A stretch of DNA of 64,000 nt from Bilabrum cf. latius (lineage: Eukaryota). Shown here one piece after another: positions 700 to 64,000 of the stretch (positions are counted from its first letter, which is position 1; every line of letters begins with the position of its first letter). Both the position numbers and the translations under genes were made by a program. The stretch is from positions 372,001 through 436,000 of the forward strand of contig OZ237757.1 of assembly GCA_965178125.1 (NCBI GenBank), read 5' to 3'. A model generated the notes under the pieces. The model saw only the letters and a list, made by a program, of their open reading frames with translations, had not been told where the DNA came from and made no database searches.

Positions 700-2378
700 A
701 TGCGAGCAATCCTGGCATCATTGGCGGTTAGCGGCGCGATATGTGCTGCGCAGCTGGTATAGCATCGGTATCCGCTCCAGACTGTATGGCCGATGCCTAA
801 AGAAATGAAGGTGGATGCGTCGGCAGGCCCGGTATACATTTCCAGCGATTTCAAGGTGGTTTGCCAGGGCCTGTGCGCCGACCCCATCGCTGATGCTCTA
901 CATCGTTTTGAATAGAACATTTTCATTAATGGCACGCCGTCAGCCGTTCCTAGCCCGGCGCTCAACACCTGCACAATGCAAGTCGAGAAGGATGCTCCCC
1001 TTGCGCTTGGAGCCGACGAGTCGTACACGCTCTCCATCTCATCGAGTGGATGCAAAATAACGGCACCGAATCAGTGGGGTGCACTGTACTCGCTTGAGGT
1101 CCTGTCCTAGCTGATCTTCTGGACGCCCGAGGAGAATACCTACAGCGTCCGCAATGGATCCGTCACGATCAACGATGAGCCGCGGTTCCCCTGGCGCGGG
1201 CTGATGATCGACACGGCTCGGCATTACCTCACCCCGGATTCAATCCGTCAAACCATCATGGCAATGGCGGCGAACCGCATGAACACGCTGCACGTGCACG
1301 TCGTCGAGTGAGTCCTAGGCGCGCGACTTGCAGCCTAGACTTGGCCATTCAGCTCCACGCTATTCTCTTCATGAATTCAATGTTGTATCGCAGCGACCAG
1401 TCGTGGCCTTTGGAGAGCATCAAGTACCCGGATTTCGCCGCGAAAGGCAAGTACTGCCCCCGCTGCGTGTTTACCCCAGAGGTCATGAAGGGCATCGTCC
1501 AGTACGGCGCCAGCTTCGGCATCCGCGTGATGCTTGAATTCGACATGCCCGCCCACAGCAGCATCTGGGCCAACGGGTACCCCGACCTGGTCATCACGTG
1601 CGACGAGCCGGACGCCCAGCCCCTGCTGGACCCCACAGGCCCAGTCTACGAGGTGCTGGACAACCTGCTCACCGAGTTCGCGGGAGTGCAAGACGCGGGT
1701 TACGTGCACCTCGGGGGAGACGAGGTCCACAGCTACGCGTGCTGGAACAGCAGCGCCAAGGTGCAGGCCTACATGAAGCAGCAAGGCATCCCGGCAGGCA
1801 ACATGACCGCGCTCAGGGAGCACTTCCAGTACCAGGTGCAGCTCGTGGTGCAGAAGCACGGGCTGAACTCTGTATTCTGGCAGGAGGTGTTCGAGGTGGG
1901 CACCAAACTGCTGAACACGACCGTCATCAACTCGTGGTCGTCGGCCCAGTCGGTGCTTGACGTGGCGCGGGCGGGACAGCCGGTGATCCAGTCGGACGGT
2001 TTCTACCTCGACCAGCAGCGGCCACGCGGGGAGAACTTTTATTTCCTTGAGGACACTTTCTTCGCCATGTACGGGCCAGTGTGGGTGGGCGATCTGGAGC
2101 CAGAGTACCAGAAGAACGTGCTCGGCGTGAGTGGGTGCCAATGGGGAGAGCAGGTGGATTCCTACGCTCTCTCTCAGAGGCTCTGGCCGCGCGCATCGGC
2201 CATCGCTGAACGGGCCTGGTCGCCGGCGTCCGTGAACTCGACGGACCCGAACGTTGTAATCCCTCGGGTGGGAGCCATGCGATGCGAGCTCCTTCAGCGT
2301 GGCGTCTACAGCACGCCGCTCCGGCCGTCTACGATCGAAGGCTACTGCCCCTTGCCTCAGGGTGAGTCAAGGCGGTAA
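700..2378 (+). CDS. Secreted beta-N-acetylhexosaminidase (GH20); 2 exons (700-1307, 1394-2378); 3 in-frame TAG read as Gln
   Basis: Signal peptide MRAILASLAVSGAICAA. GH20 motifs: GADESYTL, GALYSLEVLS[TAG]LI (cf. GALRGLETFSQL), DEPRFPWRGLMIDTARHY, spliced HVVDDQSWP, EFDMPAH, catalytic HLGGDE, LWPRASAIAERAWS. Ends in TAA. Confidence 0.93.
1308..1393 (+). other. Spliceosomal GT-AG intron (86 nt) in the GH20 gene
   Basis: gtgagt...tcgcag. Removal restores the frame and the HVVD-DQSWP motif. Confidence 0.88.
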
Positions 2379-2533
2379 TTATACGCGGCTGCGAGATTTT
2401 GGCGAGACGGCACCACATCGCGCTGGTTATCGTTGTTTTCTTTCGACTTTCCGACGAAGTTTCGCCGCATTTCTTGACGCACGCTCCCCGCACGGCGCAC
2501 ATCAAACACCGCGAACCAAGAATCACATTGGCT

Positions 2534-4498
2534 ATGCAATTAGCATCTGCTCTTGTTTCTTGCCTCGTGGCATGTGCCGTTGCAGTACCCTTTCCTCTAG
2601 CAAACGTTGAGAAGCTGGAAGCAACGGTGGAAGAGTTGGTGAGGAGGGCTGCGGTTCGGAAACGCGTACTTGTCAATGAACCATACGTTTGATCGCCTCG
2701 ACTTATTCATGTCCAAATATTTGTTTGGCTTAGACGAATTTGGTGGCTTGAAATGCGTTGCCGATCTCTCACAGCGGTCATAGAATCGAATAAAAGGTGT
2801 GCCCAAGCGAAAGATTCATGTACGGACTACTCTCTCTATATCCACTTATATTTCGCCATGTTGCAGATAAATGGTCACATGGAACGTACCATGCCGAACC
2901 ATAGGCGCAACCTGCTGTCATCACGCAAGGGGGCCTCTGCAGCCCTCGAAGTCGCCGTACAGGACGCCATGCTGGTAGCTAGCGACGACCCAGTCGCTTA
3001 CTGCAAGCAGAACCCAAGCGCAGGCTGCTGCAAGCAGATCATCCCTCAGTACGAGGCATGCGCACCGTACTTTCAGGGCGAACTGGACCCTGCCAAGCTG
3101 TGCCCATCGCAGTGCGCGAAAGAGCTCCGCGAGCTGGCGAGGACATTGCCGGGAAGTGGCGAGAAAGATGGCGTGTGCGCCGTCGCCATCCAGGGCGTTG
3201 CGCTGGTGAACCTGGGCTGCCCCAAGGGAACTGACAATGGGTATTGCTACAACGAGGTGAACACCATTGGGGCCCTCATCAACTAGAAGCACCCCTCCCA
3301 TGAGGCCATCGAGGAGTCCGTCCACTCCATCTGCGACGCGAGCGGCGGCGCCCACAGCTCCTGCATCGAGCAGATCATCGACGGTCAGGACCAGGTTTAC
3401 TCTCTCATGGAAGAACTTCTCACCATCGACAGCCCGTGGGGTTCCACCGACGACCAGTACCCGTACGACGACGATGCCTCAGGACGCAAGGACGATGACG
3501 CTGCTCCCTTCAACCCGCTGTGGACTGCACAGCCCATCGTGAGGGGGCTTGACCTGTTCTGCAACAGGGTGAGCGTGTCTCCTCTCTCGCCCAAGCAAGA
3601 CCTCTGCCTCATCCACATGGTCGACAACACCACCATCTTCGGGGCCGACGACGATTCCCAGCCGGCACCTGGGCACATAATCGGCTAGCTGGCAGATCCC
3701 TGCTCCAGGTCTTTCTTCGCGAGTGTGTAGAACACGGATCCTGTCGCGTTGTCAGTCGGCTCCTACGGTGCCGCGCGGCAAATCGCCACCAACGCCATGT
3801 GCGGACTGGCCACCGACTTCGGCCAGGTGACGCGTAACCTGACCGAGTTCTGTGCCAGCGATGCGGGCGGCAAGTCCAACGTCTTCGACGTGCTGGCCCA
3901 GGGGGAAGTCACGTGTGCGGTGCCCTGCCAGAACGCGATCTCCGTTGTGCTGGAAGACCTCGACTGCTGCTCCAACGAAGTCCTCTTCGAGGCGTGGTAC
4001 CTGGGCGCATCCTCGCCCATCCCCACTGAGCTGCGCCCTCCCATGGACTTGTGGATCCAAAGGATCCAGCACACCTGCGTGCTAAAGGAGTACATGTTCT
4101 GGGACCAGTGCGGGGCCAAGAACCCAGCAGCGCACGCAAACGTGATTGCGCACTTCGACAACGCAAACGCCAAGTTTTTCCAGACTCTCAACGAGACAGA
4201 GCAAGCCAGCTTCGCGTCTCGCCTGTGCGTGCACGTGGAGCGAAAAGTGGGCGCCCCTGTGGAGGGCTGCAAGGCCGAGCTCCCGCCCGTGCAAGACCCA
4301 ACCAATCCCAAGGGAATGGCCGTGGCACTGTCGGTCCTGATGGGCACTGAAGGGGCAGCCGCGGGGGCGCAGTCGCTTCTGACGGGGTCACCTGCAGCGG
4401 CTCGGGCCGCCGTTAAGTTCCTGGAGAGGAGGGCAGACCAGGGGGCGCTGTACGATGCGAGCAAGCCTGTGAAGGTCGACTTTTCGGAGGCAGCCTGA
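2534..4498 (+). CDS. Secreted cysteine-rich protein of unknown function; probable intron 2666-2866; 3 in-frame TAG
   Basis: Signal peptide MQLASALVSCLVACAVA. A phase-0 gt...ttgcag intron joins it to a frame (track ORFs 2753, 3407, 3749) broken only by TAG. Ends in TGA. Confidence 0.7.
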
Positions 4499-4611
4499 TT
4501 GCTTCACTAATGGCCTTGCTCAGCTCAGCGCAGGAACGTACTCTGCTGAACCTTCGATGGGATCCCGGAAAGCCGCGATGCTGTCAGTTTTGGAGCTTGC
4601 AATCGCCGTCA

Positions 4612-7600
4612 ATGCTTGCGTTTCATAGTGCTTCTTTGCAAATAATGTTTGGATGCGCCTGGGTGGCCTCGGTTGAGATCGGCAACACCCCAACACTGTG
4701 CCAGTTCGGGTCCTAGTGCGAACCTGTCAGCGATCCGATTTCCACGGTTACTTCTAAAGACCGCAAGGTTCGTGCTGCCTTTATCACTGAAAGTCTTGTC
4801 AGGTTAGAGTACGATGGATCAGGAACCGGTACTTTCACAGATCTTCAGTCTACTTTTGCGTGGAATCGGCGAGTAGACCAACCTCGTGTCACTGTCGAGG
4901 ATACCCCTGCCGGCGGTTTCGTGGCAAGTTGCGGGCTCATGAATGTATCATATACTCCTGACAATGTACCCCCATCGAACGCAACTCTGGGGCTGACAGG
5001 CGCAGGATTTCCAGCCAATGCAATCCGAGTACGATCGCTGGCGAGAGGCATCAACACGCCAGTCGGATCCGAAACGGTATGGACCCCAATAAGCAGCACC
5101 GCGGGCAATCTGCTTGGTACAATTCGTACTCTAGATACGATTGGGGGCCCGCAAGATCTGAACTGCAGCGCGCATGACCCGGAAGGCAACCCTCATGCTG
5201 GCCCCGGCTGGATTGTTCGCGGCGAGCCCGAGCACTGCGTGTATGGAGTTGCGTCTTCGACCGGAATATCAATTATTGACGACACAGATTCGCCCGTGTG
5301 GGGACCGTACCCTAATAGTGGCGAAATGGCAGCCAGCGAAGGCCAAGCGGATCCCTCCTACTACTGGAGGCCAAGACGAGCAGGCACTTGCCCCAGCGAC
5401 ACCCCAGACGAGCACAAAGCGCCGTGCGTGCCAGAAGCAAACCCTTCCGACGAGCAATCATGCGCAGCAGCTGGATGCTGCTGGCACACCCAGCCCATGA
5501 CGGTAAACCTGTACTACTCTGCCAGCAGGAACGACCACCTGTCGGAAGACGAGTGTACCGGGTGCGGTGGCGTATACAGCACGATCGGGCCGCAGATGCA
5601 GCTGTACCCTACTCCTTCTAACGGAGCGAACGTATCGCTATGGCTGTTTTGGAGCCAGAACTAGACGGACAACGTGGTGAGCGTGTCACCCCCGAAGCAG
5701 CCAGGGTACGAAAATTCAACCACCCACATCGGGTACATTTGGGAGAGCGAATTCCAGGGTTCAGTGCGGGTACAGCTGTGGTACAAGCCCGCAGCCGGCA
5801 CCGAGTCCGCTGACCACTTCACCACTGCCGGGGTCTAGCAGGAGGCCGAGGCCAAGCAGCAGGGCTATCAGCTCGTATCCACGCTGGGCTACGCCATGGC
5901 CCCACCGCCACCCCTGTCATCCCACTCGTCACACCTGCAGGCCTCTGCTCCTTCGTGCTTCAGGAGGCAGGGTCGCGCCGATCTGTACGTGTTCGCGCAT
6001 GGCACGGACTATCGCAAAGCCCTGAGCGATTTCGCGGCCGTGGGCGGGAACATACCACTCCCGAGAAAGCACTGGCTGGGCTGGTCCTGGAGCACCTGGA
6101 CGGACCCAGGCAGCGGATCGCAAGAAGTGCCTTCGAGGGCGGACTGGGAGTCGTATTTCAAGCAGCTGGACGCGGCCCAGATCGGCCTGAGCACGCTCAC
6201 TCTCGACTGCGAGTGGCACGTGTCGGGCTGCTGGGGGGCTACATACACGTACAATCAGACGAGGTACCCGGACCCGCAAGGCATGGCGCAGGAGTGGCTG
6301 GATAACGGCGTGCCGATCGGCGCGAACCTGCACGACACAGTGGGCGTGGGTCCCCTGGAATCCAACTACAGCAGCTTCGCAAAAGCCGTCGGTGTGGATC
6401 CCAGCTAGAACGCGACAATCCCCGCCAACTTCACCGACCTTGCCTACATGCAGGCTATGCAGAGCTACCTGCTGGATCCGCTCAGGGAACAATACCTTGT
6501 GTCTTTCCCGTGGACCGACTGGCAGCAGGGCATGGGACCCGCAAGCGGCGTCTCGGGCTCCAACCCGACCTTCCTACTCAACCATGCCAGGGGCCACGAT
6601 GAGGCAGCCACCGCTGAGAGCGTGCGGCCGCTCCTCCATTCCAGGTTCGGAGGACTGGGCGGTCACAGGTATGCCTCCATGTTTGGCGGCGACGTGCGGC
6701 GCGACATGCCTAGCGCCAAGTTCATGGTCTACATGAACTCTGTGGCTGCTAACGCTCTGGTGGCGTGGTGGGGACAAGAGCTCATGCAGCTAGGCAGCGA
6801 CCACCAGGAGGTCTTCACGAGGCTGGTGCAGTCGTCCGGTGCGTGGGGCCCTATTGCCACCTTCTGGGGGAACAACGGGGCCGATGATCGGATCTGGGAC
6901 ATGGATGACCCGTTCAAGTCGGCAGTGTACGAGTCTCTCCGGGACAGGCTGGCCACTCTACCCTACAGGTACATGCTGGGCAGAGTGGCACATGAGACGG
7001 GGCTAGCGCCCCAGAGGCCAATGTACTACCACACGACTGCCAGCAAGGACCCGGTAGCCTACGGGGAGTACACCAGGTACCAGTACATGCTTGGGGATGA
7101 CTTGCTGGTCGCGCCAGCGGTGGAATTCATGGATTCGGAATCGAAAACCACGGCGGTAACCGTGTGGCTGCCCGCATGCCAGGAGGGCCAGAAGGCTTGG
7201 GTGGACTGGCGCACCGGCGGGGCCGGCAACTGGTCCAGCCTCTTCGGCGATTCCACAGTGCCGCGCACCAGCTGTCTTGAGGCTGCATTGTTTGTCAACG
7301 TCAGCGCTCCCATCGACCTCGTGCCTGTCTTTGCACGGAGCGACTCCATCCTGCCCTTGCTGCCGCGTGAGCTGGCCATGCAGACGGGGCAGGCCTCGCA
7401 GAGCTTTCTGGACATCGAGCTGGCCGTCATGCCGGACGCATGGACATCCGGATCTAACACCACCATCTACGACGACGATGGACTCACCAACACCTACTTG
7501 ACTCCTACTGGGTACGCCAAGATCCTGGTGCAGGCATCTACGGACGGCACCAAGCGCACGCTGCAACTGTCTGCAGCGAGTCCAGCAATCGCTGCACCGG

Positions 7601-7839
7601 AGCCTGGCAGCCAGCTCGCGACCGCTCGCTCGTACTCGGTCCGAGCGCATGGCGTGCTCGATGCGCCAACGAGCGTGTCCATCTGCGGTAAACAGTTGAC
7701 CAAGGGCCAGGCACCATCTGCGCCTAGTCGCTCGGATCGGCCAGATGCAGGGCGATGGTGGTACATGGAGCAGCAGCAGGTGGTGATTGCCCGCAGTGGT
7801 GGTCCAGCGGCAGTGCCGTGCACCTTTGAGATGCAGTGA
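4612..7839 (+). CDS. GH31 alpha-glycosidase (WxDWQQG type) with an inserted trefoil/P-type-like Cys module; 4 in-frame TAG; start uncertain
   Basis: One frame joins track ORFs 4510, 4921, 5896 and 6448 across TAGs at 4714, 5662, 5836 and 6406. Motifs: LVRLEY, DLYVFAHGTDYRKALSDF, WTDWQQG, GGHRYASMFGGD, QYMLGDDLLVAP, YDDDG. Cys module EQSCAAAGCCW. Ends in TGA. Confidence 0.88.
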
Positions 7840-7940: not shown

Positions 7941-10628
7941 TCACATGAAGCTTCCCTTGTACGACCTGTACCCTGCCTGCATGGCATCACGGCTTCCGTA
8001 CACGCCCTTGTTTGCCGTCCGCCACGCGTTGTACGACAGTCGCTGAGGTCCCGGCATAGGACCACCGATGGGAAGCCCCCTAGGCATCCCACCCATGTCC
8101 ATTCCACCCATGCCCATCCCACCCATGCCCATCCCACCCATGCCCATCCCACCCATGCCCATGCCGCCAAAAGGCATCATGGGAGGCATCATCATTTGGG
8201 CTTGGCTTGCTTGCGCAGCTTGCTCTGCTGCCTCCTTGGCCTTCTTGATCGCCGCGTCCGCCTCCTTTTTGGCCTCATCAGCGGCTGCCTTGGCCTTGGC
8301 TGCGCTGGCCTCGGCCTCTCTAGCCCGCTCCCTCTCTGCGCATAGCTGCTTCTCAGACATGCGCAGGCCGGCCGCGTCAACCTCGGCCCGCTTGATCCGA
8401 TCCAGGGCCACTCGCGCTTCTTTGACCAAAGCGTCCGCCTGCGCCTCGGCGCGGGCCACGTTCCGCTCCATCGTGGCGCCGCCGTCACCTCCTCCCCACG
8501 CCGCAGCGACCGCCGCGAAGTCCTCACGGCGGCATCGCACGCCAAACTGCGTCCTGCGAGCCTCGGCCGAAAGCTCCTCAACGCCGGCTGCTGCTGCCCC
8601 GAGCACAGCGGCGGGGCTGTCCACAGGCGGAGCCCTGCCCGCTGACAGCATCTCGTCAGCAGCGCCAGCCCCAGAGCTAGGACCCGTCCTCCTCATTGGC
8701 GTCTTGCGCTTGGGAGTGGCGCTGCCAGGCGCTGTGTTACCACCAGTAGCACCGCTGCCCCTGTCGTCAACTGGTTCATAGTCGTCTCCAAGAACTTGCC
8801 GCATCACTTGCTCGGCTGCAGCACGAGCTCGAGGACCACCACTGCCCACCTCGGCCTCAAACGCCTCGTCGATACCTTGGACGGTCTCTCCTGCCCATTC
8901 CGTAGCGATGTATGACCGCGTAGTCTTGCCGACCATCCTTCCAATTGATGAATCGCCTGCCAAAGCAGCCTCCAGGGCCTTGGCCTGCGAGCTGCGTGCC
9001 TGCTGGGCAGCGGAAGATGTGCCGTGGGACTGCTTCTCCTGCTCTGCCGTAGGAATTGCATCTCGGAGCGCAGCCATCGCAGGCGAGTTTGCCACTGCGT
9101 CTGCTGCATCGTCCCACGCCTCGTTCAGACCGGCCACGATCTATGACTTGGCAGCGAGAACTCCCGCGTCGATGTTTGCCTTGAGCTTGGCCAGCACCCG
9201 ATCGTATGCCGACTTGCAGACCTTCTCGGCGTTTTTAGGCACACTGCCAATCGTCATGCCAGTGCGAGCTTCGGCATGCGCCACGGCCTGCCTGCGCAGC
9301 TCATTAGCCATTACAGCCGCAGCGGCCTCTGCCGATTTGTGGCTCCGGACGCTCTGAACTGCAGCCCAGCACGGCGACTTCTCATCTTGCACTGCAGTGC
9401 ACACGTCGTCTGCCAGGGCATGCACCCACTCCGACGCGATATGATCGGCATGGGTCAGGAGCTGCTCCCGAAGGGTGCCGCCGTTGATTGTAGTCAGGCT
9501 GGGCGTCTTGTTGGTCTGCTGTGCCAGGCTCTGGATCACGGGTACGATGGAGGCGGGCACGCATGGCATGTCTGCTCTATCCATCAGCGTCCCGGTCACA
9601 GTCGACTGCAGTTCGTGCTGTAGTGTGCCTGACAACAGCCGGTCCAGCTCGAACCGGAGGTCCTCCTGGTTCTCCGGATATGCCTCTCCCTTGGAATTCA
9701 TCGCGACTGGTGGGATCAATGTCATGACAGTCCTTCGGAAGCAGCTCCGCAGGTCACGCCTCTGTTTGTTGCGCTTTTCTTCCTCAGATTCGTCCGCTAG
9801 AGGCGCGCGCTCGTCCTCGAACACATGCCTCCGAAGCTCCTCTAGTTTAGCATCATCGAGGTTTGACATGACCTGACACATGGAGAGCGTGCCCAGCACC
9901 TGCCCCTCTGACGCAGTTGCGGCCCCTGCTGGCTTCGCCGCCACGATTGCTGCATCGTGTATAAGCCTAGACATTTGAACAATCGGGGATAGCATGTCAA
10001 GCGCGGCATTTCGGGTGATGGCGTCTCGCTGTGCGCAGATGAGGGCACCCCGGGCCGACAGCACCAGAGCCGGAAGCACCGTCCGGTTATCGCGCTCCTT
10101 GGCCTCTGCGCCCGATCCCTCGCAGTCGATCAGCAGCACCACAATGTCCGTCGTCTGCCCGAATGCGCCTTTCGGCAGATGCACGAACACTCCGTCTGCT
10201 CCGCGCGTGCACGGCTGGACGGAATCGGACGTCTCGAAGAGGGAGGGCACGCGGGCCCCGCTGACCTTGCATGGCTCGAATTCCACTTTGGATCCATCGG
10301 TGTGCTTGACGCTGTCCTCGCTGACTGGCTCGGCGTATGCGTTCTTCAGCAGCCATGCCAGGGCGTAGTTCATGGTGGTGCTCTTGCCTGCTCGCGCCCT
10401 GCCGTTGATGGCGAAGGTGACGAGAGGAACAGCTCCTGGCAGCACATCAATGATTTGACGCAGTTTTTTCTCATCGGGCATGCTCAGCTGTGGTGCCTCA
10501 ACGCCGGGCTTGTCGTCCACTTGCCACAGGCGCACGGCTCGGGAGATGGCAATACAGGTGCCACCTGGCATTCTCGATCTCGACCCACTGGATGCAGCAC
10601 CTCCTGATGCGGCAGATGCAGCACTCAT
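7941..10628 (-). CDS. Guanylate-binding protein/atlastin-like large GTPase with helical region and GGMGM-repeat tail (copy A); 1 in-frame TAG
   Basis: G1 INGRARAGKSTTMN, G2 CTRG, G3 LIDCEG. TAG at 9141-9143 joins two same-frame ORFs. Ends in TGA. Confidence 0.82.
8085..8168. repeat. 15-bp coding tandem repeat (GGMGM), about 5 copies
   Basis: catcccacccatgcc units are visible directly. Confidence 0.85.
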
Positions 10629-38807: not shown

Positions 38808-38835
38808 GGAACTGCGAAAAAAATGAAACATCGTT

Positions 38836-51059: not shown

Positions 51060-51208
51060 AGAAATATCAGATGTTTCTTCGTGATAGCGTGCGCTTTTGA
51101 GTTGAGTCCACAAAATATCAGATCCCCCCATGGAGGGCTTGTGGAAGGGCATTTGCTGCTTTTTGACTTGATTTCACAAAATATCAGATACCCCGCATTT
51201 ACATCCAA

Positions 51209-53165: not shown

Positions 53166-56100
53166 TCAATGGCCTAAGCACTGCGCTAGCACCAAGTATG
53201 CATTACCTGCGTCAGAATGGGCAGCCCCGTCGACATCCTTAAATGCAGCCAGCGCTCTCGTGGCGATATCCACGGCCTCATCACCGCTTCCCGACCTAGC
53301 AGCCAAATCCGCCTGCAGTAGCAGAGATCGTCCGAATGTATGGGTATCATCTAGGCCGGCATCGATCAGGACCGACTGGTTCCGCACAATCGCGGCAGTG
53401 GCTTCCTCGGAGCTGACAATGCCGGATTTGAGCTGGCACCGTAGCAGACCCAGCTCGATCTCGACGTGGCTACTAATCCTATCGTTAAGCATACCTTCCG
53501 AATAAAGAGACTCGTTGCCATCCAAACTGCCGCTATCACCCCCACCATTGCTGCTGCTGCCACCGTCTGACCCATCAGAGCCGCTGCTTGAGTTCGTGTC
53601 GCTATCTCCAGTGTATTCTGAGCCGTCTCCCTCGGTAGACTCATTGCTGGACTCGGAGTCGCTGCCAGTGAGCTCGCTGTCTGTCTCCAGGGGACTAGCC
53701 TCGAGTTCCGCAGCTCGCTGGATGGCTTCCTCAACGGCCATCGCAGGTGGACCTGCCCGTGCGTCACGCTCACCGACGCCGCTGCCCGCCGCGTCACTGC
53801 AAGGCGTACGCTCTTGCACAACATCCTCATGAATGGCAGCAGTCCATAGCAGCTCATCAATATGGTACGTCCGCTTGTTTTCCTCATTACTCGGCAACTC
53901 TACCGACTTCCTCGCTCTGCCGCTCATCTTTGCAGCCATCTCAGCATCTAGCTTCTCGACTATGCGCAAACACCTGCCGTACAGCACCGCCGCAAGTTTG
54001 TACTCTCCCATCTGCTCAATGTACTTTGCCATGCGCCACAGAGCCGCAGCGTAAGATCCGCTCTCTGGGGTGGTCGCGACGCGCGTCATTCGCAGAACAG
54101 CGTGCATGACAGCCACTGCAAGCTTTGGGAGCTCCAAGTCAGACAAATTCCTGCTAAGCCTATCTAATGACACAGCATAGTCGTAGCGGACTTGGTTCAG
54201 AATGAAGTCCCCCCAGTCCTGCTCCCCCGAAGGATCGTCCCCGGGCAGCAACACCGCAATTCGAAGCCGGGCGCCACGGTTGCCATCGGATGGTACCACG
54301 GCCAATCCACCAGGCAGCCTTGATGTAAATTTTGCGACACTTTCAAACTGGTCAATCAGCTCGATTGAAGCCAATCTAAGGTAGCACTGGGTTCGAAGCG
54401 GGGTTGTCACGGCGTTCTACACGGTCAGCAAGCTGATCTCATCCAGGATGTTTTGCTCGTCGGCGCCCACCCGCTGCAAGTGGGCCAGCTCTCGGAACAG
54501 CGCCTTGATCCTGTCAAAGCGCGATTGTTGGAAACCAGCTGCAAGCTTAGTCCCGACGCAACCACTGCTATTCGCTAGGTGCCCGGTGCCAACGAAGGCA
54601 GGGCTCACTACCTCGTCATGAAGGGCGTGTAGCGTGCTCGGCTCCATCGCGACAGCGACGCCCTTTGAGGCAAACAATCGCGATTCGGAAGCCATCGCGA
54701 GAAAGGCGGGGTACAGGCCATCCACATCTTGAGCGCGTTTCCCCGCCACCTGCTTGCCAATGCTGCGCAGCAAGCCCGCAAGCTCCACTACGTGAGCTAG
54801 CGAAAGGGATGCCGCTGCATGGAATAAGAAGCACTAGCCGATCACTTGCACGATACGGGGCTACTTAGAAACATCTGCCGCCGCGTCGCTGCCATATTGT
54901 TGAAGCAGCAGCCGAACATATCTCAGGCCCAAGCCATGGTCGTGTAGCACCTCTTTCACAATGGCCCTCACCTCGAGAAATGTCTCGCGCTGCCGTCCTT
55001 GCGGGCGGCCCGTGGCATCGCGAACCTCGCGACCTGTGCTGGCCGGCAGGTCTGATGACTCGGGAGGTACCTCTGCCTCGATCCTGCGCACAACTTCTCT
55101 CCGCACGCTTGCTAGTCTACCTGGGCTCGTAAGAGCCCGGACAGCATTTACTGCATTGTCTCTGTTGCCCCGCATGGTGGCATCTGGTGAGACCGGCACA
55201 ACAACCGTCTCAGATTCTACAGCACTATGCTCGGAAAGATCGGAAGAGATCTTTCCCTGATCGGTACTTGATTTGGCAAGGCACCCCTTCCTTGTGGAAG
55301 TATGCATTCTTCGCAGCTCCCTTGCTCCTTCCGGTGGCAGGGTGCATGTCAAGAACGGGTTCTTGCCCCAGTACCAACGAGGGCAGGACACAACAGCTAC
55401 AGCACTGCATGATGTGGCTTCAGCTGCCCCTATTGAAGCATGCGATTCTGCGGCTGCGGCGCATGAAACTCCTTTGGAGTTTTGCATTCCAATCAGAATA
55501 GCTCCCTAGTCGGGGCACACGCTGGCCTGCGTGACCCGCCAGCCAGGATGCCCCCTTGTTTCCTACAGCCAGCGTGCTGCTACTGCCGCAATGTGTCTGA
55601 CTGCTGCTGGCTCTCGCATACCACGTTTTACTGCCGTCCTGTTTAACTGAGTCAAAGCACCACGGAGCACCGTGCCTTCAGGTGGACCGCGATGCAAGCC
55701 AGCAGCGGTTGCCGCTTGGCTACCCAACAGCACCGCCCATACTCTAGGTTGTGCTGAGAACGATTTGCTCTACATCCAAGATATCCAGTCAGCGTCCGGT
55801 ATGAGCAGCCTGTGCGTGTCAAGAACCATCCTTTGGCCGTTTTTCATTTGATGCACTTCCACATCGAAAGGCAAAGCGGTCTTGAGACCAACGTGAGCCT
55901 TAGCTTCTTGCCCGACTTCAGTCGTTTCAATGCGATCTTCGATGGATTGGAAGCAAATTCGATCCGAGAGGTCTGCACCCGAGTGCTTCGCCGCATCGAT
56001 CAGCTCACGCAAGAGCTATGTCTGCTACAACATTAGCTACTGCAGCGAGGCCCGGCTCCCGGGATCCAACGAAGCTGAGCCTTCACGTTTTGACAGTAAG

Positions 56101-58097
56101 AGAGATCCGTGGCTTGGATCCGATGCCGAGTCTCTAGAGGAAGCATCCCCAATGACAGCACCGTCGCCAGCAACAGCTGCATCTTTAGGTAGAGCGCTCC
56201 CAGCACTTTGGCTAGTTTCGGCAGTTTCGGCAGTTTCAGCAGCAAGAGCCGTTGTCCAAACCCGTGTCTCCTAGAGCATACTCTTTACATTAACGCCAGA
56301 GTCTCGCAGAAAATCAAGGACGCTCAGTGATACACTGTTATGTGGCGTAGATGATGCGCACCCCGAGGCAGCACCCGCAGAATCCGCTTCAACATCGCTA
56401 AGCCGCGGGTCGACTACACCTGAAGTTGCTGATCCGGCAGTTTGGCCGTCGGCACCAACAACAGATTTGCTGGTCAAAGAACCTGTGAGCGGTAAATCGC
56501 GGATCTCGTCGTTATCGAGCACCTGTTCATGGCCGCTTGCGGGACCAGCAGTGCCAGGACCTGAAGTGGTCACATCTCCAGCATCATCCACCGAGGATAA
56601 GTAGCCGAAGGCCTCCATCACGTCGTCCTTCATGGCATCCCATCCGTCTGGGAAAAAATGCTTTAGCTCCTTCTCAGCAATCGTTGCATTCGTTGTGGGA
56701 AATATCGAGTCGGCTTCGGTCCGCTGTGCGACGTACTGGTGCGCGTGCACCCACTGGCAACCTGGCTACAGGCTCGGCCCTAGGAAGAAGTGCTCTGCTA
56801 GCGGCCTAACCACGTCATGCTCCTATTCAAGGTCTGTATGCATCGACATAGCGCCATCTGCTGATCCAACACGTAGAGTCGTCTCGCCCGGGCCACCACC
56901 AGCTACACTGGCCATCGCGAAGACTTGCACTCGCAGTACCCTGGCGCCCCCCCTTGTTGTCCTGACAGGGAGGTCCACGACCTGCAGGAGAGGAGTGCTG
57001 ATCGCAACCTTATCCATGGCATGCACCCAGCGGCTTGCCGCCGCCTCTCTTTTCGCCGCTTTGGCTGCCATGGTCAATGAACCGTAGATGCCTTCGTTGT
57101 CGAAGGCAAACTTGAGGAAGAGGCCGAGTCTGCGGTGCGCTGCCTTGACACCACCCGCTCTGCCCCCTGCATTCCGAAGAAATTCCAGCTCTGTCTTTGA
57201 TTCAATCCTTTCCATATCCCGATTGCTGAAGCCGATGTGACCTTTCTCGGTGCGCAGATCCAGCGGCGGTAACCCTGCCAAAGCCGAATGGGCAGAGGCC
57301 GAAAACCGCTCACCGAGCGCTTCCAATGCTTCCTTGCGTTCTTCTGCGTCTTGTCTCGACAAGGCAATCATGCGCTTGAATTCCTCAAAGGCTTCCTGCG
57401 GCCGCAAGACCTCGTCCGTATCGTCATCATCATCCGCCGGCATTCTTGCGTCCGACTGCTCGTCCTCGTCGGTGGCGGAGCTTTTAGGGCCACTAGCGCA
57501 GAGATCTCCAACGCCAGCCGCAGACGTAGACAAAGATACAGACTGCATTGGTTTGGCGTCACTTCGACTCATGTCGTCGTCTGTTTGGCTAGCTGCGGCC
57601 GGCTCAGCGGCCTGGTAGCAACAAGTTGCTCGGTGCGAGTCTGCTCGTTCCCCACTACCTCGAATAGACGACCCAACGTCAACAAGTGAGTACGATGATG
57701 CAATTGGCACTGCAAACGCACCGTGTTCGTACTAGGATGCTGTGCTTGACTCTATTGGCGGACTCGTGCCAACCGCGCACTCTGCTCCGGCTGCGACACT
57801 CGATGCAGCTATGTCAGAAGAGCTGATTGGCTGACCAAGCACGTGTGATTCATATGTATCCAATGTTTGGGATACCAAGTGTTCAATTGGAGCTTCAGTT
57901 TCAATGTCAATCGCGCAATACGAGTCTTTCGGCGAGTGTTCCAGCGAGGCATCAGGCTTTCCCAGGGAACCGTTCATGTATTCACAGTAGACACGCCTCG
58001 ACCTCTATCTACCTGCTAGTTTTGTTAGTATAGTACTGGCTGAAGCCTACTGAATTTCAGGCACGTCAGAGAGCTGGCTGTCACGCATGCGATGCAT
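53166..58097 (-). CDS. Clu-domain protein with C-terminal TPR-like repeats (~1640 aa); about 15 in-frame TAG; start uncertain; may extend to TAA at 53019
   Basis: One frame is broken only by TAG. Clu-like motifs: AAKAAKRE, TPLLQVVD, TLRVGSADG, FDVEVHQMKNGQRMVLDTHRL and LHDHGLGLRY. TPR-like helices such as GEYKLAAVLYGRCLRIVEK. Confidence 0.72.
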
Positions 58098-58664
58098 CGC
58101 TAAACTGCTATATCTCTCGGTAGTTGTGGATGCAACGACCTAAGTTGCAACGTAAGTCTAACTCAAACAAATACAAAAGCACTAATCGTAGCTCGGTGTT
58201 TATTGATTCCCGTAATAATAGGTCCGATTGTGCAAATGTAGCTTCACCCATCCGAAATTCCGGATCCGGATCCGGGATCGGATCAATACTGGTGGTGGTG
58301 GTTGTGGCCTCCTGATGAGCATCGAGAACAGCAAATAGATAACTAAGCAGTAGAAGGCAAACACCAACCACTGCTCTACACGCAGCGGCAACTGTACACT
58401 AGAATTCTATACACTAGAAGGCAGTGAATGCCAGTGGCTGAAGGTGAGGGGTGCTTCTCCGGGCGAGGCTAGGGCTCTGCAGGTCCAGCTGCCTCCGAGG
58501 GGGATCCAGACCTGAGTGCTTGACTTGAACTCAATTTAACAAGTGGCGCCCCGGATGGGTGCACTCATTGAGGCAACTTCAGCTTGCATGCTTGAACTGC
58601 ACTTCCTCGTCCTGCGTGTTCAGGATCACCACTGGCACCGTCAGCCTGTCCTCGTTGGAACTGA

Positions 58665-59126: not shown

Positions 59127-59501
59127 GGTAAGAGTGGATCAAGTGTACACATCCCGTGTGTGGTTTACAACTGCCGGGTGGAGCGCACAAATCATGGATC
59201 TGGTGTGAAGGCAAGTCTCTGGTCGCAGCGATTGACATGGTCGCAACACCAGATTGCAGCGAAAGCTGCCTTTACGTACTTGCTGTGACTCAGAACGGTC
59301 CAATTCTTGCTAGATACATCTGCAAATACAGAGAATGAACGCATGGTTAATTCAAAGTGGCAATCGAGGGACTCAGGAGCCACGTAGTTAAGTGTGATTT
59401 ATTATTTGTAGCGTGCGTGTATTGGACGGATCTGGATCCAGACCAGCTTTGCTCCACTACAAACTCAGTGGTATACGCTCAATTCTCTTGATTTAAGTCA
59501 A

Positions 59502-62500
59502 ATGGAAGGCGGTAGTAGTATCCTCATCGATATCGATCCCGTGCTGCAGAACTTGGTCCGCCGCGGGTTTCCATTCCGCGCTCATGATGTTGTAGAGGCT
59601 CTCAGCAGCGTCTTTGAAGTAGAGACAGATCCCAGTTGTGGCAACAATTGGCACGTATTTACACAATCCAATAATTTGGGTAAACTACCCGAAGGTGTTC
59701 ACTTACAGCAAGTAGCGCAGAAGCCAAAGCTCCTACAGGCTTTCGTTGAGACAGCCTTGTCTGCTTCGCCAGCTACTTCCCCAAGCGCAATTATAGTATC
59801 AGGTGAGATAGCCGTATTAGGATTTTGTGAGGGAATGTCAGAGACACTTCATTGTAGTTTTGCCGCGCCCCTTCTAGATTGACTGCAGCCGCTGCTGATG
59901 GAAAATCACGGGCGGACTCTGTCCGAGTTGTCATAAACCACCTCCTTGATCGAAGGGTGAGCGTTGAATTTGTTACAGATACAGCAACCCCGCTTGGCAA
60001 GGAGATGCGGTAGCGGTCTCGAGGTCCCGATAGCCTTGGCCTCTCCGTAACGCACGTGACCGACCTGGCCCAGCCCGACGCTGGGCTAGCTACTACTAGT
60101 ATTGGTTCGAGTCTCCCTCGCTAGCCTTGGTTGAGCGTAGAAGACCGCATGTTCATGCGTGACTCGCTCGTTCAGCCGAACCTCAGAGCGCACATGCCTG
60201 ATGCAGCTCTGCTTCATCATTAGCGCTCAAGTTGGACGCTCGCCGCCCAGGCCGCGACGCAGCGCACATTTGCACGGCGTCATGTGAGCGACGTCTACGG
60301 CGAGATGCCGGAGTCATTGGACGATGCAGTGGCAAAGGTGTAGGAGCTCGCGCCAGCCATGCGCCGAGAATCCAACGGATCTGGGTCAGTCGCGCATGCG
60401 TTTGATCGACATGTTGCAGACTCGGTGGCTGCTCCTCTGCCTCAAGCCGCACGAGCACGTGAAATAGACGAAAAGGCCAGAGAGTCAGGCACCGAACACG
60501 GTGCTAAAGGTAAATGGCATGATCCAGCGAGCGTGCAATGTGTCCGCTACTTTGTCGGCAGCGCGCTGCAAGCCTGCATGCGTAGCCTGGCTGGAGATCT
60601 GAGCCGTGCTTCCTCGCGTATTGATGGTATGCCCCTGCATTCAAACTCACCCGGCAGGCAGAATGGGCAACATCAGTCTGAAAACCCATCGAGAGAGAAC
60701 GTCGTTGCAGCCTCAGGTAAAGGGAGCGGCAGAGGCGGGGCAGCGGCCGCAATCGACCCCGACTAGGAATCCCGAGGTGCTGAGAGTGCAACTTGGGGTG
60801 CAGCGGCGAGGCAATCCGGCTCTCATGCTGGCGGTGGAAAGAGGAAACACAAGGACAAAGGAAATGCCAGAGGCAACTAGGGTGGTAGAGGTCAATAGCA
60901 AGGGAAACACTCGCGAGCGCAAGGTCAGGTCAAAGCCACACAAACCAAGCAAGTATCGATGGCCCCTCGAGCAGTGGCCCTCAAGAGACGGCGCGAGCTT
61001 GAGTTTGATGCAGAGCTTAGCGCCGCGGTTCGCCGCGCAGGCATGCTATACACCCGGTTGCTGGCCGATGCAATGTAGCTTGGTGTTGCTTGCACGTCCT
61101 CGCTCGATGTAACGATAGGATGTAATCCGGATCGGCCAGCAGTAGCTGGCAGCGACGCCGGTCCAGGTCCAGAAGAAGGAGATGATCTAGCAGATGAGAA
61201 GCAGGTCATGCAGAAGAAGGAGGACCTTGCGGTTGCTCGGATCGTGGGACTTCCCGTGAAAGAGAGGAAGGACCAGATCATCAGGAGGCTTGTCCTTGCG
61301 TTTGCTCGGAGGTGCAAGAGGCACCTGCGCGGATTTCGGCGTGAGCTTGCTGTGTTTGAGACGGCACCTCAAATTGCGCAGCAGCTGCTACCCGTGGTAG
61401 GTCACACGACTGGACTAACGAGCTTCGCAAGAACCGGAGAACGTGAGGTTCTGCAGTAGCACCCCATCGCGGTGCTCACGGGCGCCCCAGGGTCAGGAAA
61501 ATCCACCCAGGTGCCCCAGCTGTTGGCAGACGCAGGCGTAGTGCGGGCCTTCAAGGGACATAGGCTGCTCGTGATTGAGCCCCACCCAACGATTGCATCA
61601 GCACTGGCTCGACACGTGACGGATGAATGGCACGAACCAGGCGTGGCAGAGGCCATGCGCGCGCGAGGGCGAGGGTTCGAGATCGGACTGGCGCTGCACA
61701 AAGAGCAGGCCCTGCAGTGGGACCCCGACACTACCTCGGTATTATTTGTGGACGAGGACACGGCCGTTACCATGCTGGCGGCATGGAAGCATCGTGAGGT
61801 GTACGCTGGGGTATCATCGAAGAGTGGGCGTGGAAAGTGTGGCGTCGGAGCATCGCTGCCGTCCATTGATGAGTTCTCGCTGGTCATGGTGGACGAAGCG
61901 CACGTGCGGAGCGCCAGGTGCGATGCACTGCTTGGCATGCTAGTGGACTCGGTGAAGAAGAATCGTGACTGCATGGGCACCGATGGAGTCGCAACAGCAG
62001 CTTCGGGCGCAGCCGTAGCAGTGCCGAAGGCTGCGATGCGTGGAGATTTCCCAGTGCGTGGTCTCATCGTGGCATCGGCTACCCCTGACCTTCCGCTGCT
62101 CGACTAGTACATCGGCAGTGACCACATCAGCGTGGATTTGGGCAAGGGCGAGTTTCAGGTGAAGACCAAGATCGAATCGCTCCTGTCCCTCCGAACGGCA
62201 CTGGAAACCCACGAGAAAGAGCTGCACTCCGGGTCTCGTTTCAGCATCCTCGGGTCGGATGCCCCGACTAAGCGAGGCAAGGGTGGAGGCTCCAGAGGAC
62301 AGCGACAAGAGCTACCACGGGTCAGCTCCATGCTCGGCAAACGGATTGCAAAGACGGTTGCAATGCTGGCATTTCGAGAAGCACACCTCCTCGGAGCAGA
62401 AGGGAGAAGCGTGCTCGTATTTGTGCCAGGTAGGGAGGAGGGATACGCTGCTGAACATGCGTTCCACCTGGCCCAAAGCGTACAGGGCACTCAGCCTGGC

Positions 62501-64000
62501 AACGGCCTCTACAGCACCATAGTCATTCATGAGGACAACATGAACGACAAGAGTATCCGAAGGAGTATGCAGGGGTAGTGCGTGTTCTTTGCCACGCGGG
62601 TGGCCGAGTCTTCCATCACGCTGCCCAACGTGGCCTGCGTGATCGATTGCGGCTACGACTGGCAGGACTTATACGATCCAGATCTCAGGACCTATCAGCG
62701 CAGGCTAGAGCGGATCTCGCAAGCGTCCTCTCGCCAGAGGAGAGGACGAACGGGTCGCACATGCTCAGGCAGATACATCCAGATGTTCTCCCGCCAAGCA
62801 GCCAAGGCCATGCCGAGGCACCCAGTGCCAGGCGTGCTACGGGACGACCTGGCGCCTGTCGCGCTTGATCTCCGTGCATGTGGACAGGACCCGACGTGCT
62901 TTCGCTGGATTTCACCACCGAGGTGTGGCGACTTGGTCGAGGCAGATCAGCGGCTGATAGCACTTCAGACCATCCCAGGATTTGATGCCTCGCCGCTTGC
63001 ATCCGCTGTGGAGCTATCTGAGGCCTCATCCAGGGCAGCCACGGTCGCGGAGACCCAAGTGCTAAGACAGCTCGGCCTGCAGCCCTGGCTCGGTGCACTG
63101 GTGCTGCGCGGAATGCGCCGGAATTTCACAACTCGCGTATGCAGCGATATCGTGCAGCTGGCTAGCTTGATTGACCTCGGTGCCATCGATCGGATGCTTC
63201 CCATGCAGCCAGGGGTGATGCAGCTGATTGGTGCCCCTCGAGGCGATCCCATCACTCTGTTGAGAGTGTACAAGGCCTGGAAGCAGGCAATGGCGCAGAG
63301 AGGGTCCAAAGCAGCCCTGGCCATTCTCCAAGCAGTGTATTCAAGGCACGCCGCAGACGACATGCACGGCATCTTCGGCAGGGCTGAAACTAGAGCGGAA
63401 ACCCTGGTGCGTCTTGCCGTCCGGGTTGGGGTGCGGTTGTCCCCCGAAACTCAAAAGTACACGGAGGCTAGCCTGCCCGACGAAGCATTGGATTTGATTG
63501 CCAGCGACAGCCGAGAGGCGGATGCACTGCATGCGTGCGTGAGAGACTTGTCGGATGCGTACGTGGAACATCCCACTGGTATCGAATCGGACATCGCAGT
63601 GCTGCTGGGCTGGGCCCTGAATGACCGGCTGGCGGCCAGAAACGTGGGTAGGAGAGCAGGATACAGCGTGTCAAGGGCGGGTAAATGGCTTGGGATTGGG
63701 CATCTTGACCCGAACTCAGGCCTGGGCATCTCCGGCATCAAGCACGTGGCAGAAGAACCGCCCAGCCCAGAAGGTGGGGGAATAGCCGCATCCGAGGCGG
63801 AGTCGCTTGAGCTTGTGGCCTTTACCAGCGTTGAGAACGACGGTGGATTGCTGCTGAGGGGATGCCTGAGCGTCAGAAGGCAGGAGCTAGTGGATATTGC
63901 TGGGCTGGACGAGAAGCTTATTCCACAGCCGCTCGTCATGACTGAGAGGATCATATCTGGGATATCAACAGCAGGGTACCGCAGCCTGCTCGGCGAAGAT
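59502..64000 (+). CDS. DEAH-box RNA helicase with long N-terminal extension, running off the window; probable 86-nt intron 59803-59888; about 11 in-frame TAG
   Basis: Motifs GAPGSGKSTQVPQ, VDEAH, SAT, LVFVPG, ATRVAESSITLPNVACVIDCG and QRRGRTGRT. The frame from 59889 is broken only by TAG as far as it was read. The first exon and intron are inferred from frame compatibility. Confidence 0.85.

What the first reader, a model, noticed from the sequence alone, without database searches (positions are those of the whole stretch)
700..64000. Variant nuclear genetic code: UAG = glutamine while UAA and UGA remain stops
Seen: about 90 in-frame TAGs across nearly all genes on both strands. No internal TAA was found, and genes end in TGA or TAA (TAA at 2376, 15937 and 36693). 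The 3717-codon ORF at 22327-33480 has about 27 TAGs and no TAA or TGA. Evidence for Gln: (i) GH3 paralogs have CTG-TAG-TTT (35428) versus CTG-CAG-TTT (42365-42367, minus); (ii) TAG at 1108 sits at the Q of the GH20 motif LETFSQL; (iii) TAG sits at the Q of the RT motifs QxGFR (47554) and PQG (47272); (iv) GBP tails read TAG-TAG-MMM versus QAQ-MMM. Established: UAA and UAG are usually reassigned together in eukaryotes. UAG-only Gln (the NCBI table 15 assignment) is known from few nuclear lineages, such as the fornicate Iotanema and some phyllopharyngean ciliates. Inference: if this GC-rich organism belongs to another lineage, this is an independent origin. It would require a tRNA-Gln(CUA) and an eRF1 that ignores UAG.
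Basis: partly seen in the sequence, partly recalled or inferred. Interest (0 to 1): 0.95.

Follow-up and report, generated by a model that had tools for sequence, protein, structure and literature searches.

The report
UAG read as glutamine, eukaryote nucleus
This GC-rich stretch of a eukaryote's nuclear genome is only readable if the stop codon TAG is translated as glutamine while TAA and TGA still end genes, a rare variant of the genetic code known from only a handful of lineages.

Summary
In 15 ORF pieces (16,696 codons counted from each first ATG) there are 99 in-frame TAG. The 3 TAA and 10 TGA are all terminal. Reading TAG as sense raises the longest ORF from 637 to 3,782 codons; reading TAA as sense does not.

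TAG most likely encodes Gln. With TAG masked as X, it falls on columns that are Gln in 130 of 138 and 137 of 139 reverse-transcriptase homologues and in 33 of 33 bacterial GH20 homologues. Over 11 alignable TAG columns the summed log2-odds are Gln +8.8 and Lys -2.9, the next best. Without the retrotransposon, the 7 remaining columns do not decide (Lys -0.0, Gln -0.9).

TAA is a real stop. About 40 internal TAA would be expected from the CAA/CAG ratio and none is seen. Sequence after the TAA stops scores as non-coding.

A spliced contig from another study keeps 11 of 11 helicase TAGs unchanged.

tRNA-Gln(CUA), eRF1 and the organism's lineage could not be examined, because no genome is held. This is a new member of a known kind (the Iotanema / Protocruzia / phyllopharyngean type). 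It is unusual in being GC-rich and ending genes mostly in TGA.

The parts
700..1307 (+). GH20 beta-hexosaminidase, exon 1 (signal-like N-terminus, GH20b domain, start of catalytic domain). TAG at 760, 913 and 1108.
   Evidence: Pfam PF14845, PF02838 and PF00728 positions 1-40. The TAG at 1108 column is Q in 33 of 33 bacterial homologues and in human HexB.
1308..1393 (+). Predicted 86-nt intron of the GH20 gene, GTGAGT...CAG.
   Evidence: It is the only GT..AG pair of matching phase that joins Pfam PF00728 positions 1-40 to 41-347. No RNA was laid here.
1394..2378 (+). GH20 exon 2 (catalytic domain). No TAG. Ends in TAA at 2376-2378.
   Evidence: PF00728, 189.7 bits. Stop shown.
2693..4498 (+). 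Cysteine-rich ORF with no family match. 3 TAG (3284, 3686, 3728). Ends in TGA.
   Evidence: The tail after the last TAG scores as coding, 0.351.
4417..7839 (+). GH31-like glycosidase. 4 TAG (4714, 5662, 5836, 6406). Ends in TGA.
   Evidence: Pfam PF01055, PF21365. PDB 7wj9, 1e-38.
7941..10832 (-). GBP-like paralogue a. One TAG inside the shared coding part (9143) and 3 further upstream. Ends in TGA. Tail reads QAQMMMPP.
12625..15255 (+). GBP-like paralogue b. 5 TAG, including the tandem TAG-TAG at 15109-15114 just before MMMPGM. Ends in TGA.
   Evidence: The 46-codon tail after the last TAG scores as coding, 0.303.
15937..17934 (-). GT61 glycosyltransferase. 5 TAG. Ends in TAA at 15937-15939.
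   Evidence: Pfam PF04577. The in-frame run after the TAA scores 0.018, i.e. non-coding.
19423..21801 (+). ORF with hydrophobic stretches on both sides of a single TAG (20557). Ends in TGA.
   Evidence: The standard code splits it into 378 and 413 aa. The tail after the TAG scores as coding, 0.189. No Pfam match.
22135..33480 (+). Giant ORF of 3,781 codons with leucine-rich repeats. 29 TAG, no TAA or TGA inside. Ends in TGA.
   Evidence: All 20 of 20 inter-TAG segments of 40 codons or more score positive, 0.03 to 0.39.
33562..36402 (+). GH3 paralogue a. TAG at 33904, 35095 and 35428. Ends in TGA.
   Evidence: Pfam PF00933, PF01915. Paralogue comparison.
36693..39089 (-). GH31 alpha-xylosidase-like. 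TAG at 38765, 38747 and 38606, plus 39005 upstream. Ends in TAA at 36693-36695.
   Evidence: PDB 5zn6, 391 bits, aligned to within 20 residues of the C-terminus. The run after the TAA scores -0.004.
41393..44350 (-). GH3 paralogue b, an inverted copy of a. TAG at 43891 and 42700. CAG at 42365-42367 where a has TAG.
45241..51066 (-). Non-LTR (LINE-like) retrotransposon ORF of 1,941 codons. 11 TAG, including 47556 (QxGFR motif) and 47274 (PQG motif). Ends in TGA.
   Evidence: Pfam PF00078. PDB R2, L1 and group II RT. 150 homologues.
53166..58199 (-). Very divergent CLU/TPR-like protein. 15 TAG after the first ATG. Ends in TGA.
   Evidence: Weak Pfam PF13236 and PF13424, both below the cut-offs. 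No homologue found. Contigs of run X6 cover 12 of the 15 TAG places with no differing letter.
59472..59802 (+). Exon 1 of the DEAH/HrpA-like helicase gene. The open frame runs from an ATG to the splice site.
   Evidence: Contigs of runs X6 and X8 join across the intron. Frame shown.
59803..59888 (+). 86-nt GT..AG intron of the helicase gene. It contains the TAG at 59855.
   Evidence: Joint 59799>59886, 'skips 86, GT..AG (cut +3)', seen in runs X6 and X8. Sequence.
59889..64000 (+). Helicase exon 2, which runs off the window. 11 in-frame TAG.
   Evidence: Pfam PF00271. 120 bacterial HrpA/HrpB-like homologues. An X6 contig covers 59886-64000 with 0 other letters and 0 gaps.

Best explanation
The window is nuclear DNA of a GC-rich (about 58%), intron-poor eukaryote. 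Its cytosolic translation reads UAG as glutamine and ends proteins at UGA (10 of 13 complete ORFs) or UAA (3 of 13).

Shown here:
- TAG is a common in-frame codon, about 12% of the inferred Gln codons.
- It sits on conserved Gln positions.
- TAA and TGA occur only at ORF ends.

Inferred from what is established for other UAG-only codes (passages of PMC5304391):
- Decoding needs a tRNA-Gln with anticodon CUA, which pairs with UAG but not with UAA. It is most simply derived from a duplicated tRNA-Gln(CUG).
- It also needs an eRF1 whose N-domain no longer recognises UAG but still recognises UAA and UGA.

Neither molecule could be looked at here.
For: TAG is sense.
- 99 in-frame TAG, against 3 TAA and 10 TGA (all terminal), in 16,696 codons. 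TAG is as common in frame 0 (99) as in the other frames (127 and 96), whereas TAA and TGA are excluded from frame 0.
- ORF totals and longest ORF rise only when TAG is read as sense.
- Coding score after the last TAG is positive in 11 of 11 genes and negative in both other frames. 20 of 20 inter-TAG segments of the giant ORF score positive.

The amino acid is Gln. TAG was masked as X in every search.
- RT columns are Q in 130 of 138 and 137 of 139 homologues.
- The GH20 column is Q in 33 of 33 homologues and Q in human HexB.
- Of 1,782 columns with 10 or more homologues, 12 are at least 80% Q. The window has CAG or CAA at 9 of them, TAG at 3, and nothing else.
- Summed log2-odds over 11 TAG columns: Q +8.8, K -2.9, R -7.2, E -9.6, L -32.1.
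- The same method decodes 20 of 20 sense amino acids correctly.
- Random sets of 11 columns from any non-Gln class reach Q of 8.8 or more in at most 1.25% of 2,000 draws (Glu). True Gln columns reach it in 41%.
- GH3 paralogues: one TAG faces CAG and two TAG are conserved.
- Related LINE fragments from metagenome proteins show Q opposite our TAG 1171 (3 of 3), 1265 (6 of 6) and 919 (4 of 4).
- Among those fragments there are 8 distinct C-terminal ends that could be placed (overhang 0 or 1). 5 of the 8 fall exactly on a Gln of our copy. The ORF is about 5% Gln.

TAA is a stop.
- CAA/CAG is 0.41, which predicts about 40 internal TAA. None is seen.
- The runs after two TAA stops score 0.018 and -0.004, against a coding mean of 0.219 (sd 0.093, n = 86).
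- GH31 ends with its homologues.

Not an error and not edited.
- Contigs of runs from 3 studies carry no differing letter in 52813-64000.
- A contig that has spliced out the 86-nt intron keeps 11 of 11 helicase TAG.
Against: - Without the retrotransposon the aggregate does not decide. Over 7 columns it gives K -0.0, Q -0.9 and R -3.5. Cellular genes contribute only one decisive column, GH20.
- Several TAG columns favour other residues among distant homologues: DEAH 897 (R 64, K 19, Q 6 of 103), GH3 447 (D 11 of 14), GH3 558 (K 6, A 5 of 13), GH20 72 (K 4, R 3 of 13). True Gln columns are also mostly variable: Q is at least 80% in only 9 of 88.
- Gln is not enriched next to TAG (ratio 1.00, permutation p = 0.52).
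- Runs X6 and X8 are only guessed to be RNA. The tool marks X6 'probably DNA'. The splice joint and the near-zero intergenic depth are my reasons for reading them as RNA.
- The best DNA holder may be the sample the window was assembled from.
- No tRNA, eRF1 or peptide evidence exists here.
- All counts come from a single 64-kb window.
Confidence: 0.85

Rival explanations
1. Dual-use code. UAG is read as Gln inside genes but also ends some genes, depending on context, as the reassigned stops do in Condylostoma or Blastocrithidia.
For: ORFs were delimited by TAA and TGA, so a gene ending in TAG would not have been recognised. The 105 codons after the last TAG of the LINE ORF score only 0.040, so that ORF might really end at a TAG.
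Against: Coding score after the last TAG is positive in 11 of 11 genes and negative in both other frames. The tail after TAG-TAG in GBP-like b matches the paralogue's tail. All 13 complete ORFs have a TGA or TAA followed by non-coding-like sequence.
Confidence: 0.08
2. TAG is a sense codon for another amino acid, with Lys, Arg or Glu the best alternatives.
For: Without the LINE columns, Lys (-0.0) is level with Gln (-0.9). Single columns favour R, K or D.
Against: Three columns with 94-100% Gln carry TAG, whereas none of the 1,683 columns encoded by other, non-Gln codons is a column with at least 80% Gln. Totals are K -2.9, R -7.2 and E -9.6 against Q +8.8. One paralogue difference is TAG to CAG. 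Fragment ends of related LINE copies fall on Gln.
Confidence: 0.04
3. The common UAR = Gln code (NCBI table 6 type), with TAA merely rare because the genome is GC-rich.
For: GC3 is 0.66 in the ORFs, so A-ending codons are disfavoured.
Against: CAA is still 206 against 506 CAG, and A/G ratios of other codon pairs run from 0.20 to 1.17. That predicts about 20 to 40 or more internal TAA, and none is seen. All 3 TAA sit at ORF ends. The sequence after two of them scores as non-coding, and GH31 ends with its homologues. Reading TAA as sense adds almost no ORF length.
Confidence: 0.02
4. Not a code change: pseudogenes, systematic CAG-to-TAG sequencing error, or UAG removed from the mRNA by editing or splicing.
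For: None positive. The RNA status of runs X6 and X8 is a guess.
Against: Decayed genes would also collect TAA, TGA and frameshifts, and none is seen in 16,696 codons. Contigs of runs from 3 studies agree letter for letter over 52813-64000. The spliced contig keeps 11 of 11 TAG. Two TAG are conserved between paralogues that differ at 2.7% of sites.
Confidence: 0.01

Closest known systems
Iotanema spirale (Fornicata) nuclear code: UAG = Gln, UAA and UGA stops (PMC5304391, passages read)
   Same: Only UAG is reassigned, and to Gln. In-frame UAG is common. No UAG terminators were seen. A tRNA-Gln(CUA) is predicted.
   Different: Iotanema ends genes mainly in UAA (104 UAA against 15 UGA). Here it is 10 TGA against 3 TAA in a DNA of about 58% GC. 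Its eRF1 GTS-to-GGS change could not be checked here. Whether the organism is related is unknown.
Phyllopharyngean ciliates and Protocruzia tuzeti with UAG = Gln (PMC11687900, passages read)
   Same: The same codon assignment. It arose independently several times.
   Different: In those ciliates UAA is the commonest stop, and the phyllopharyngean GC range is 27-54%. Here TGA dominates. The gene-sized chromosomes of phyllopharyngeans are recalled, not read; this window is a contig of at least 64 kb with a LINE and about 15 genes.
UAR = Gln codes (many ciliates, hexamitin diplomonads, Streblomastix, ulvophytes, Amoeboaphelidium; listed in PMC11687900)
   Same: A stop codon is captured by Gln, presumably through a near-cognate tRNA-Gln.
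   Different: There UAA is reassigned as well. Here TAA was tested and behaves as a stop.
Other UAG-only reassignments: rhizarian exLh (Leu) and Scotinosphaera (Ser) (PMC5304391, PMC11687900)
   Same: The meanings of UAG and UAA are uncoupled.
   Different: The amino acid differs. Here Leu scores -32.1 and Ser -10.4 against Gln +8.8.
Code 15 in crAss-like phages (PMC9523058, abstract seen)
   Same: TAG = Gln.
   Different: Those are phage genomes in bacterial hosts. This window has spliceosomal introns, a LINE and eukaryotic genes.

Membership tests
UAG-only Gln nuclear code (NCBI table 15 assignment) | In-frame UAG in genuine coding sequence | tested here: met
   99 TAG in 16,696 codons. They occur within Pfam- or PDB-supported domains of GH20, GH3, RT and the helicase.
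UAG-only Gln nuclear code (NCBI table 15 assignment) | UAG positions correspond to Gln in homologues | tested here: met
   Three conserved columns: 130 of 138, 137 of 139 and 33 of 33 Q. The total over 11 columns is Q +8.8 against K -2.9. Without the LINE the total does not decide.
UAG-only Gln nuclear code (NCBI table 15 assignment) | UAA is not a sense codon | tested here: met
   0 internal TAA where about 40 are expected. The 3 terminal TAA are followed by sequence that scores as non-coding. One window only.
UAG-only Gln nuclear code (NCBI table 15 assignment) | UGA is not a sense codon | tested here: met
   10 TGA in frame 0, all terminal, against 303 and 365 in the other frames.
UAG-only Gln nuclear code (NCBI table 15 assignment) | UAG is not used to end genes | tested here: inconclusive
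   Tails after the last TAG look coding in 11 of 11 genes, but the LINE tail only weakly (0.040). No 3'-end data.
UAG-only Gln nuclear code (NCBI table 15 assignment) | tRNA-Gln with anticodon CUA, and none with UUA | not testable with these tools
   No tRNA in the window. No genome held.
UAG-only Gln nuclear code (NCBI table 15 assignment) | eRF1 N-domain altered so that UAG is ignored | not testable with these tools
   eRF1 is not in the window and no genome is held.
UAR = Gln code (NCBI table 6 type) | Both UAA and UAG occur in frame at Gln positions | tested here: not met
   No internal TAA.
All-stops-ambiguous codes (Condylostoma, Blastocrithidia, Amoebophrya sp. ex K. veneficum) | UGA and/or UAA also occur in frame | tested here: not met
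   Only TAG is in frame. The Amoebophrya genome is described as AT-rich (passages of 10.1101/2024.09.05.611473).

The most novel reading that the evidence does not exclude
The window comes from a eukaryotic lineage outside the ciliates and the caviomonad fornicates. That lineage reassigned UAG to glutamine independently, in a GC-rich genome that ends genes mainly in UGA. In such a setting the usual 'rare codon under AT pressure' route to codon capture does not apply. Relatives with the same in-frame stops at Gln positions occur in environmental assemblies.
Probability: 0.4. Interest if true: 0.78.

Novelty: new member of a known kind. Interest (0 to 1): 0.66.

Why it matters
UAG and UAA almost always share one meaning in nuclear codes. 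The papers read here list only a few cases where they are split (PMC5304391, PMC11687900).

A further case would matter for three reasons:
- It would add an independent data point on how eRF1 can discriminate G from A at the third stop-codon position.
- It would test codon-capture ideas outside AT-rich genomes, because here GC is about 58% and TGA is the main stop.
- The contigs are long, so tRNA and eRF1 genes should be recoverable from the assembly.

There is also a practical point. Standard-code gene calling breaks this organism's genes into fragments. Related LINE copies already sit in public protein sets as pieces that end at Gln positions.

Tried and rejected
- Neighbourhood test, asking whether Gln is enriched within 3 residues of TAG: ratio 1.00, p = 0.52. 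Uninformative.
- Homologue search with the CLU-like protein: none of 8,000 scored candidates reached E of 0.001 or better.
- GH3: only 16 distant homologues.
- GH31: its TAG lie in the variable N-terminal part. PDB alignments start after them. In 30 bacterial loci the three columns had 0, 1 and 10 residues, and the last was variable.
- GH31-like: the TAG at 6406 sits in a variable loop.
- GT61: a match in only 2 of 121 genomes searched, so it was not used.
- Metagenome scan with the LINE protein: one locus (L001), 42.6% GC, matching only 24 residues. Unrelated.
- Genome-contig scan with GH20 exon 2: nothing.
- Rfam on the whole window: 0 matches. ARAGORN: 0 tRNA.
- Lineage. The nearest named LINE relatives are arthropod elements at 24-30% identity. 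GH3 and helicase hits carry no organism names, or bacterial names for the helicase. No placement was possible.
- No RNA holder is listed on record for the stretch.
No whole genome is held. The protein-atlas search did not take the recoded CLU translation, and I did not pursue that route.
- Four literature searches found no report of a GC-rich eukaryote with UAG-only Gln.
Full report
**What the window is.** It is 64 kb at 54-61% GC. It carries about 15 protein-coding units on both strands:
- GH20 hexosaminidase, two GH31 glycosidases, two GH3 paralogues and GT61.
- Two GBP-like paralogues, a cysteine-rich ORF and a hydrophobic ORF.
- A 3,781-codon leucine-rich-repeat protein.
- A non-LTR retrotransposon.
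- A very divergent CLU/TPR-like protein and a DEAH/HrpA-like helicase.

Two 86-nt GT..AG introns are present. One is seen as a joint in contigs of two runs. The other is inferred from frame and homology. A LINE and spliceosomal introns mark this as eukaryotic nuclear DNA. No tRNA and no Rfam family lies in the window, and no whole genome is held for it.

**The observation.** Under the standard code the long genes fall into pieces. ORFs of 300 aa or more total 9,768 aa, with the longest at 637. Reading TAG as sense gives 23,061 aa and a longest ORF of 3,782. Reading TAA as sense changes almost nothing, at 10,218.

Counted from each first ATG, 15 ORF pieces hold 16,696 codons. These contain 99 in-frame TAG, 3 TAA and 10 TGA, and every TAA and TGA is terminal. 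In the two other frames of the same DNA, TAA occurs 38 and 83 times, TGA 303 and 365 times, and TAG 127 and 96 times. TAG is therefore tolerated in frame, while TAA and TGA are excluded.

A few of the 99 probably lie upstream of true starts: three in GBP-like a and up to two in the giant ORF. One TAG listed (59855) is intronic.

**Which amino acid.** In all searches TAG was masked as X, so that the query could not pull in Gln.
- PDB alignments put the TAG at 1108 on the Q of human HexB, though all 5 alignments shown are that one protein.
- They put the TAG at 47274 on the Q of R2, L1 and a group II RT. They put the TAG at 47556 on the Q of L1 but on S in the group II RT.
- A full HMMER search with the endonuclease-RT part of the LINE gave 150 representatives. 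The two motif columns are Q in 130 of 138 and 137 of 139.
- For GH20 I took 34 loci from genomes of one bacterial phylum. The column of TAG 1108 is Q in 33 of 33.

I then pooled five families: LINE, helicase, GH3, GH20 and GH31. This gave 1,782 columns with at least 10 homologues. Twelve of them are at least 80% Gln, and the window encodes them with CAG or CAA (9) or TAG (3), never with anything else.

A Codetta-like sum over the 11 alignable TAG columns gives Q +8.8, K -2.9, R -7.2, E -9.6, S -10.4 and L -32.1. The same procedure decodes all 20 sense amino acids correctly. Random sets of 11 columns from any non-Gln class reach the observed Gln score in at most 1.25% of draws, against 41% for true Gln columns.

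**Results that do not point to Gln.**
- Eight of the 11 TAG columns are variable or favour other residues among distant homologues: R and K in the helicase, D and K/A in GH3, K/R in GH20 position 72.
- Without the retrotransposon, the 7 remaining columns do not decide: K -0.0 against Q -0.9.
- Real Gln columns behave similarly. Only 9 of 88 are at least 80% Q.
- Gln is not enriched beside TAG.

**Independent hints for Gln.**
- The GH3 paralogues are 97.3% identical. They share two TAG and differ once, TAG against CAG.
- The tail after TAG-TAG in one GBP-like gene parallels QAQ-MMMP in the other.
- Short proteins from ENA, JGI and Logan assemblies are 25-87% identical to the LINE. They look like related copies cut up by standard-code gene callers.
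- Those fragments show Q opposite our TAG 1171 (3 of 3), 1265 (6 of 6) and 919 (4 of 4). Opposite TAG 1344 they show E, T or Q, and opposite 1077 and 971 they show A/T/R and V.
- Of 8 distinct fragment C-termini that could be placed (overhang 0 or 1), 5 fall exactly on a Gln of our copy, in an ORF that is about 5% Gln. The other 3 fall on G, L and Y. Twelve fragments with overhangs of 4 to 23 residues could not be placed and were left out. I did not see their DNA, so which stop codon ends them is not known.

**TAA and TGA.**
- CAA/CAG is 0.41, and other A/G-ending pairs run from 0.20 to 1.17. A Gln-coding TAA should therefore appear about 20 to 40 or more times, and it appears 0 times internally.
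- After the TAA stops of GT61 and GH31 the frame stays open for 172 and 218 codons. Those stretches score 0.018 and -0.004 on a codon-usage log-odds measure, where 86 coding windows average 0.219 (sd 0.093, minimum -0.012).
- The GH31 alignment to PDB 5zn6 ends 20 residues before the TAA, with 17 residues left in the chain.
- Stops are TGA in 10 and TAA in 3 of the 13 complete ORFs.

**Does TAG ever terminate?** Segments after the last TAG score positive in frame 0 in 11 of 11 genes and negative in both other frames. The LINE tail is weak, at 0.040. This cannot exclude occasional TAG terminators.

**Error, editing and splicing.** Runs filed under three organism labels in three studies hold the stretch. 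I laid four of them on 52000-64000. The only differing letters lie in 52737-52810, outside the genes.

An 8,884-nt contig of run X6 covers 59472-59799 and 59886-64000 with no differing letter and no gap, and it skips the 86-nt intron. Run X8 shows the same joint. All 11 helicase TAG are thus kept in a spliced molecule. X6 contigs also cover 12 of the 15 CLU TAG places without a differing letter.

There are two caveats. The kind of these runs is a guess by the tool, which marks X6 'probably DNA'. Contigs also drop rare variants.

**Comparison with what is known.** Passages of PMC11687900 and PMC5304391 list UAG-only Gln in Iotanema spirale, in Protocruzia tuzeti and twice within phyllopharyngean ciliates. 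They list UAG = Leu in a rhizarian and UAG = Ser in Scotinosphaera. PMC9161772 (passages) shows that Iotanema's free-living relatives keep the standard code and the standard GTS motif in eRF1.

Iotanema ends genes in UAA 104 times and in UGA 15 times, and the ciliates also prefer UAA. This window is about 58% GC and prefers TGA. Amoebophrya sp. ex K. veneficum is AT-rich and uses all three stops in frame (10.1101/2024.09.05.611473, passages), so it does not match either.

I could not place the organism. Its proteins are very divergent, and the only named relatives found were bacterial helicases and arthropod LINEs. Four literature searches found no description of such an organism.

**Verdict.** The mechanism (tRNA-Gln(CUA) and an altered eRF1) is inference. 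An independent origin is open.

Noticed in passing
33562-36402 (+) and 41393-44350 (-), flanking 36693-39089: The two GH3 genes are an inverted duplication, 97.3% identical over 2,841 nt. They bracket the GH31 gene.
   Followed up: partly
7941-10832 (-) and 12625-15255 (+): The two GBP-like genes face away from each other. They share a nearly identical N-terminal stretch of roughly 250 residues and then diverge. Both end in Met/Gly-rich tails. Neither has a Pfam match.
   Followed up: partly
44524-45492; also 10891-10917: A 483-bp unit is repeated twice (99% match) across the 3' end of the LINE ORF. Each copy starts with the 8-mer CAGAAATA about 3 times. A similar 8-mer array (ACAGAAAT, 3.4 copies) lies just upstream of GBP-like a.
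   Followed up: no
19525-19680: A perfect 78-bp tandem duplication lies upstream of the hydrophobic ORF.
   Followed up: no
1308-1393 and 59803-59888: Both introns found are exactly 86 nt long and begin GTGAG.
   Followed up: partly
52737-52810 and 52401-52801: This short stretch downstream of the CLU gene has many alternative contigs and much higher summed depth (116.9 in run X6). It looks like a dispersed repeat. A 36-bp unit is repeated 3.1 times at 52557-52668.
   Followed up: no
52784 and 61510 (run X5): Contigs of run X5 end in about 23 letters that do not match the window. From memory they resemble a template-switch / SMART amplification primer. One X5 contig spans the intergenic region and the unspliced intron.
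   Followed up: no
59889-64000: The best matches of the helicase are bacterial HrpA/HrpB proteins at about 30% identity over a fifth of its length. No eukaryotic DEAH protein appears among the 120 listed.
   Followed up: no
window 52000-64000: Runs filed under three different organism labels in three studies hold this stretch with no differing letter inside the genes.
   Followed up: no
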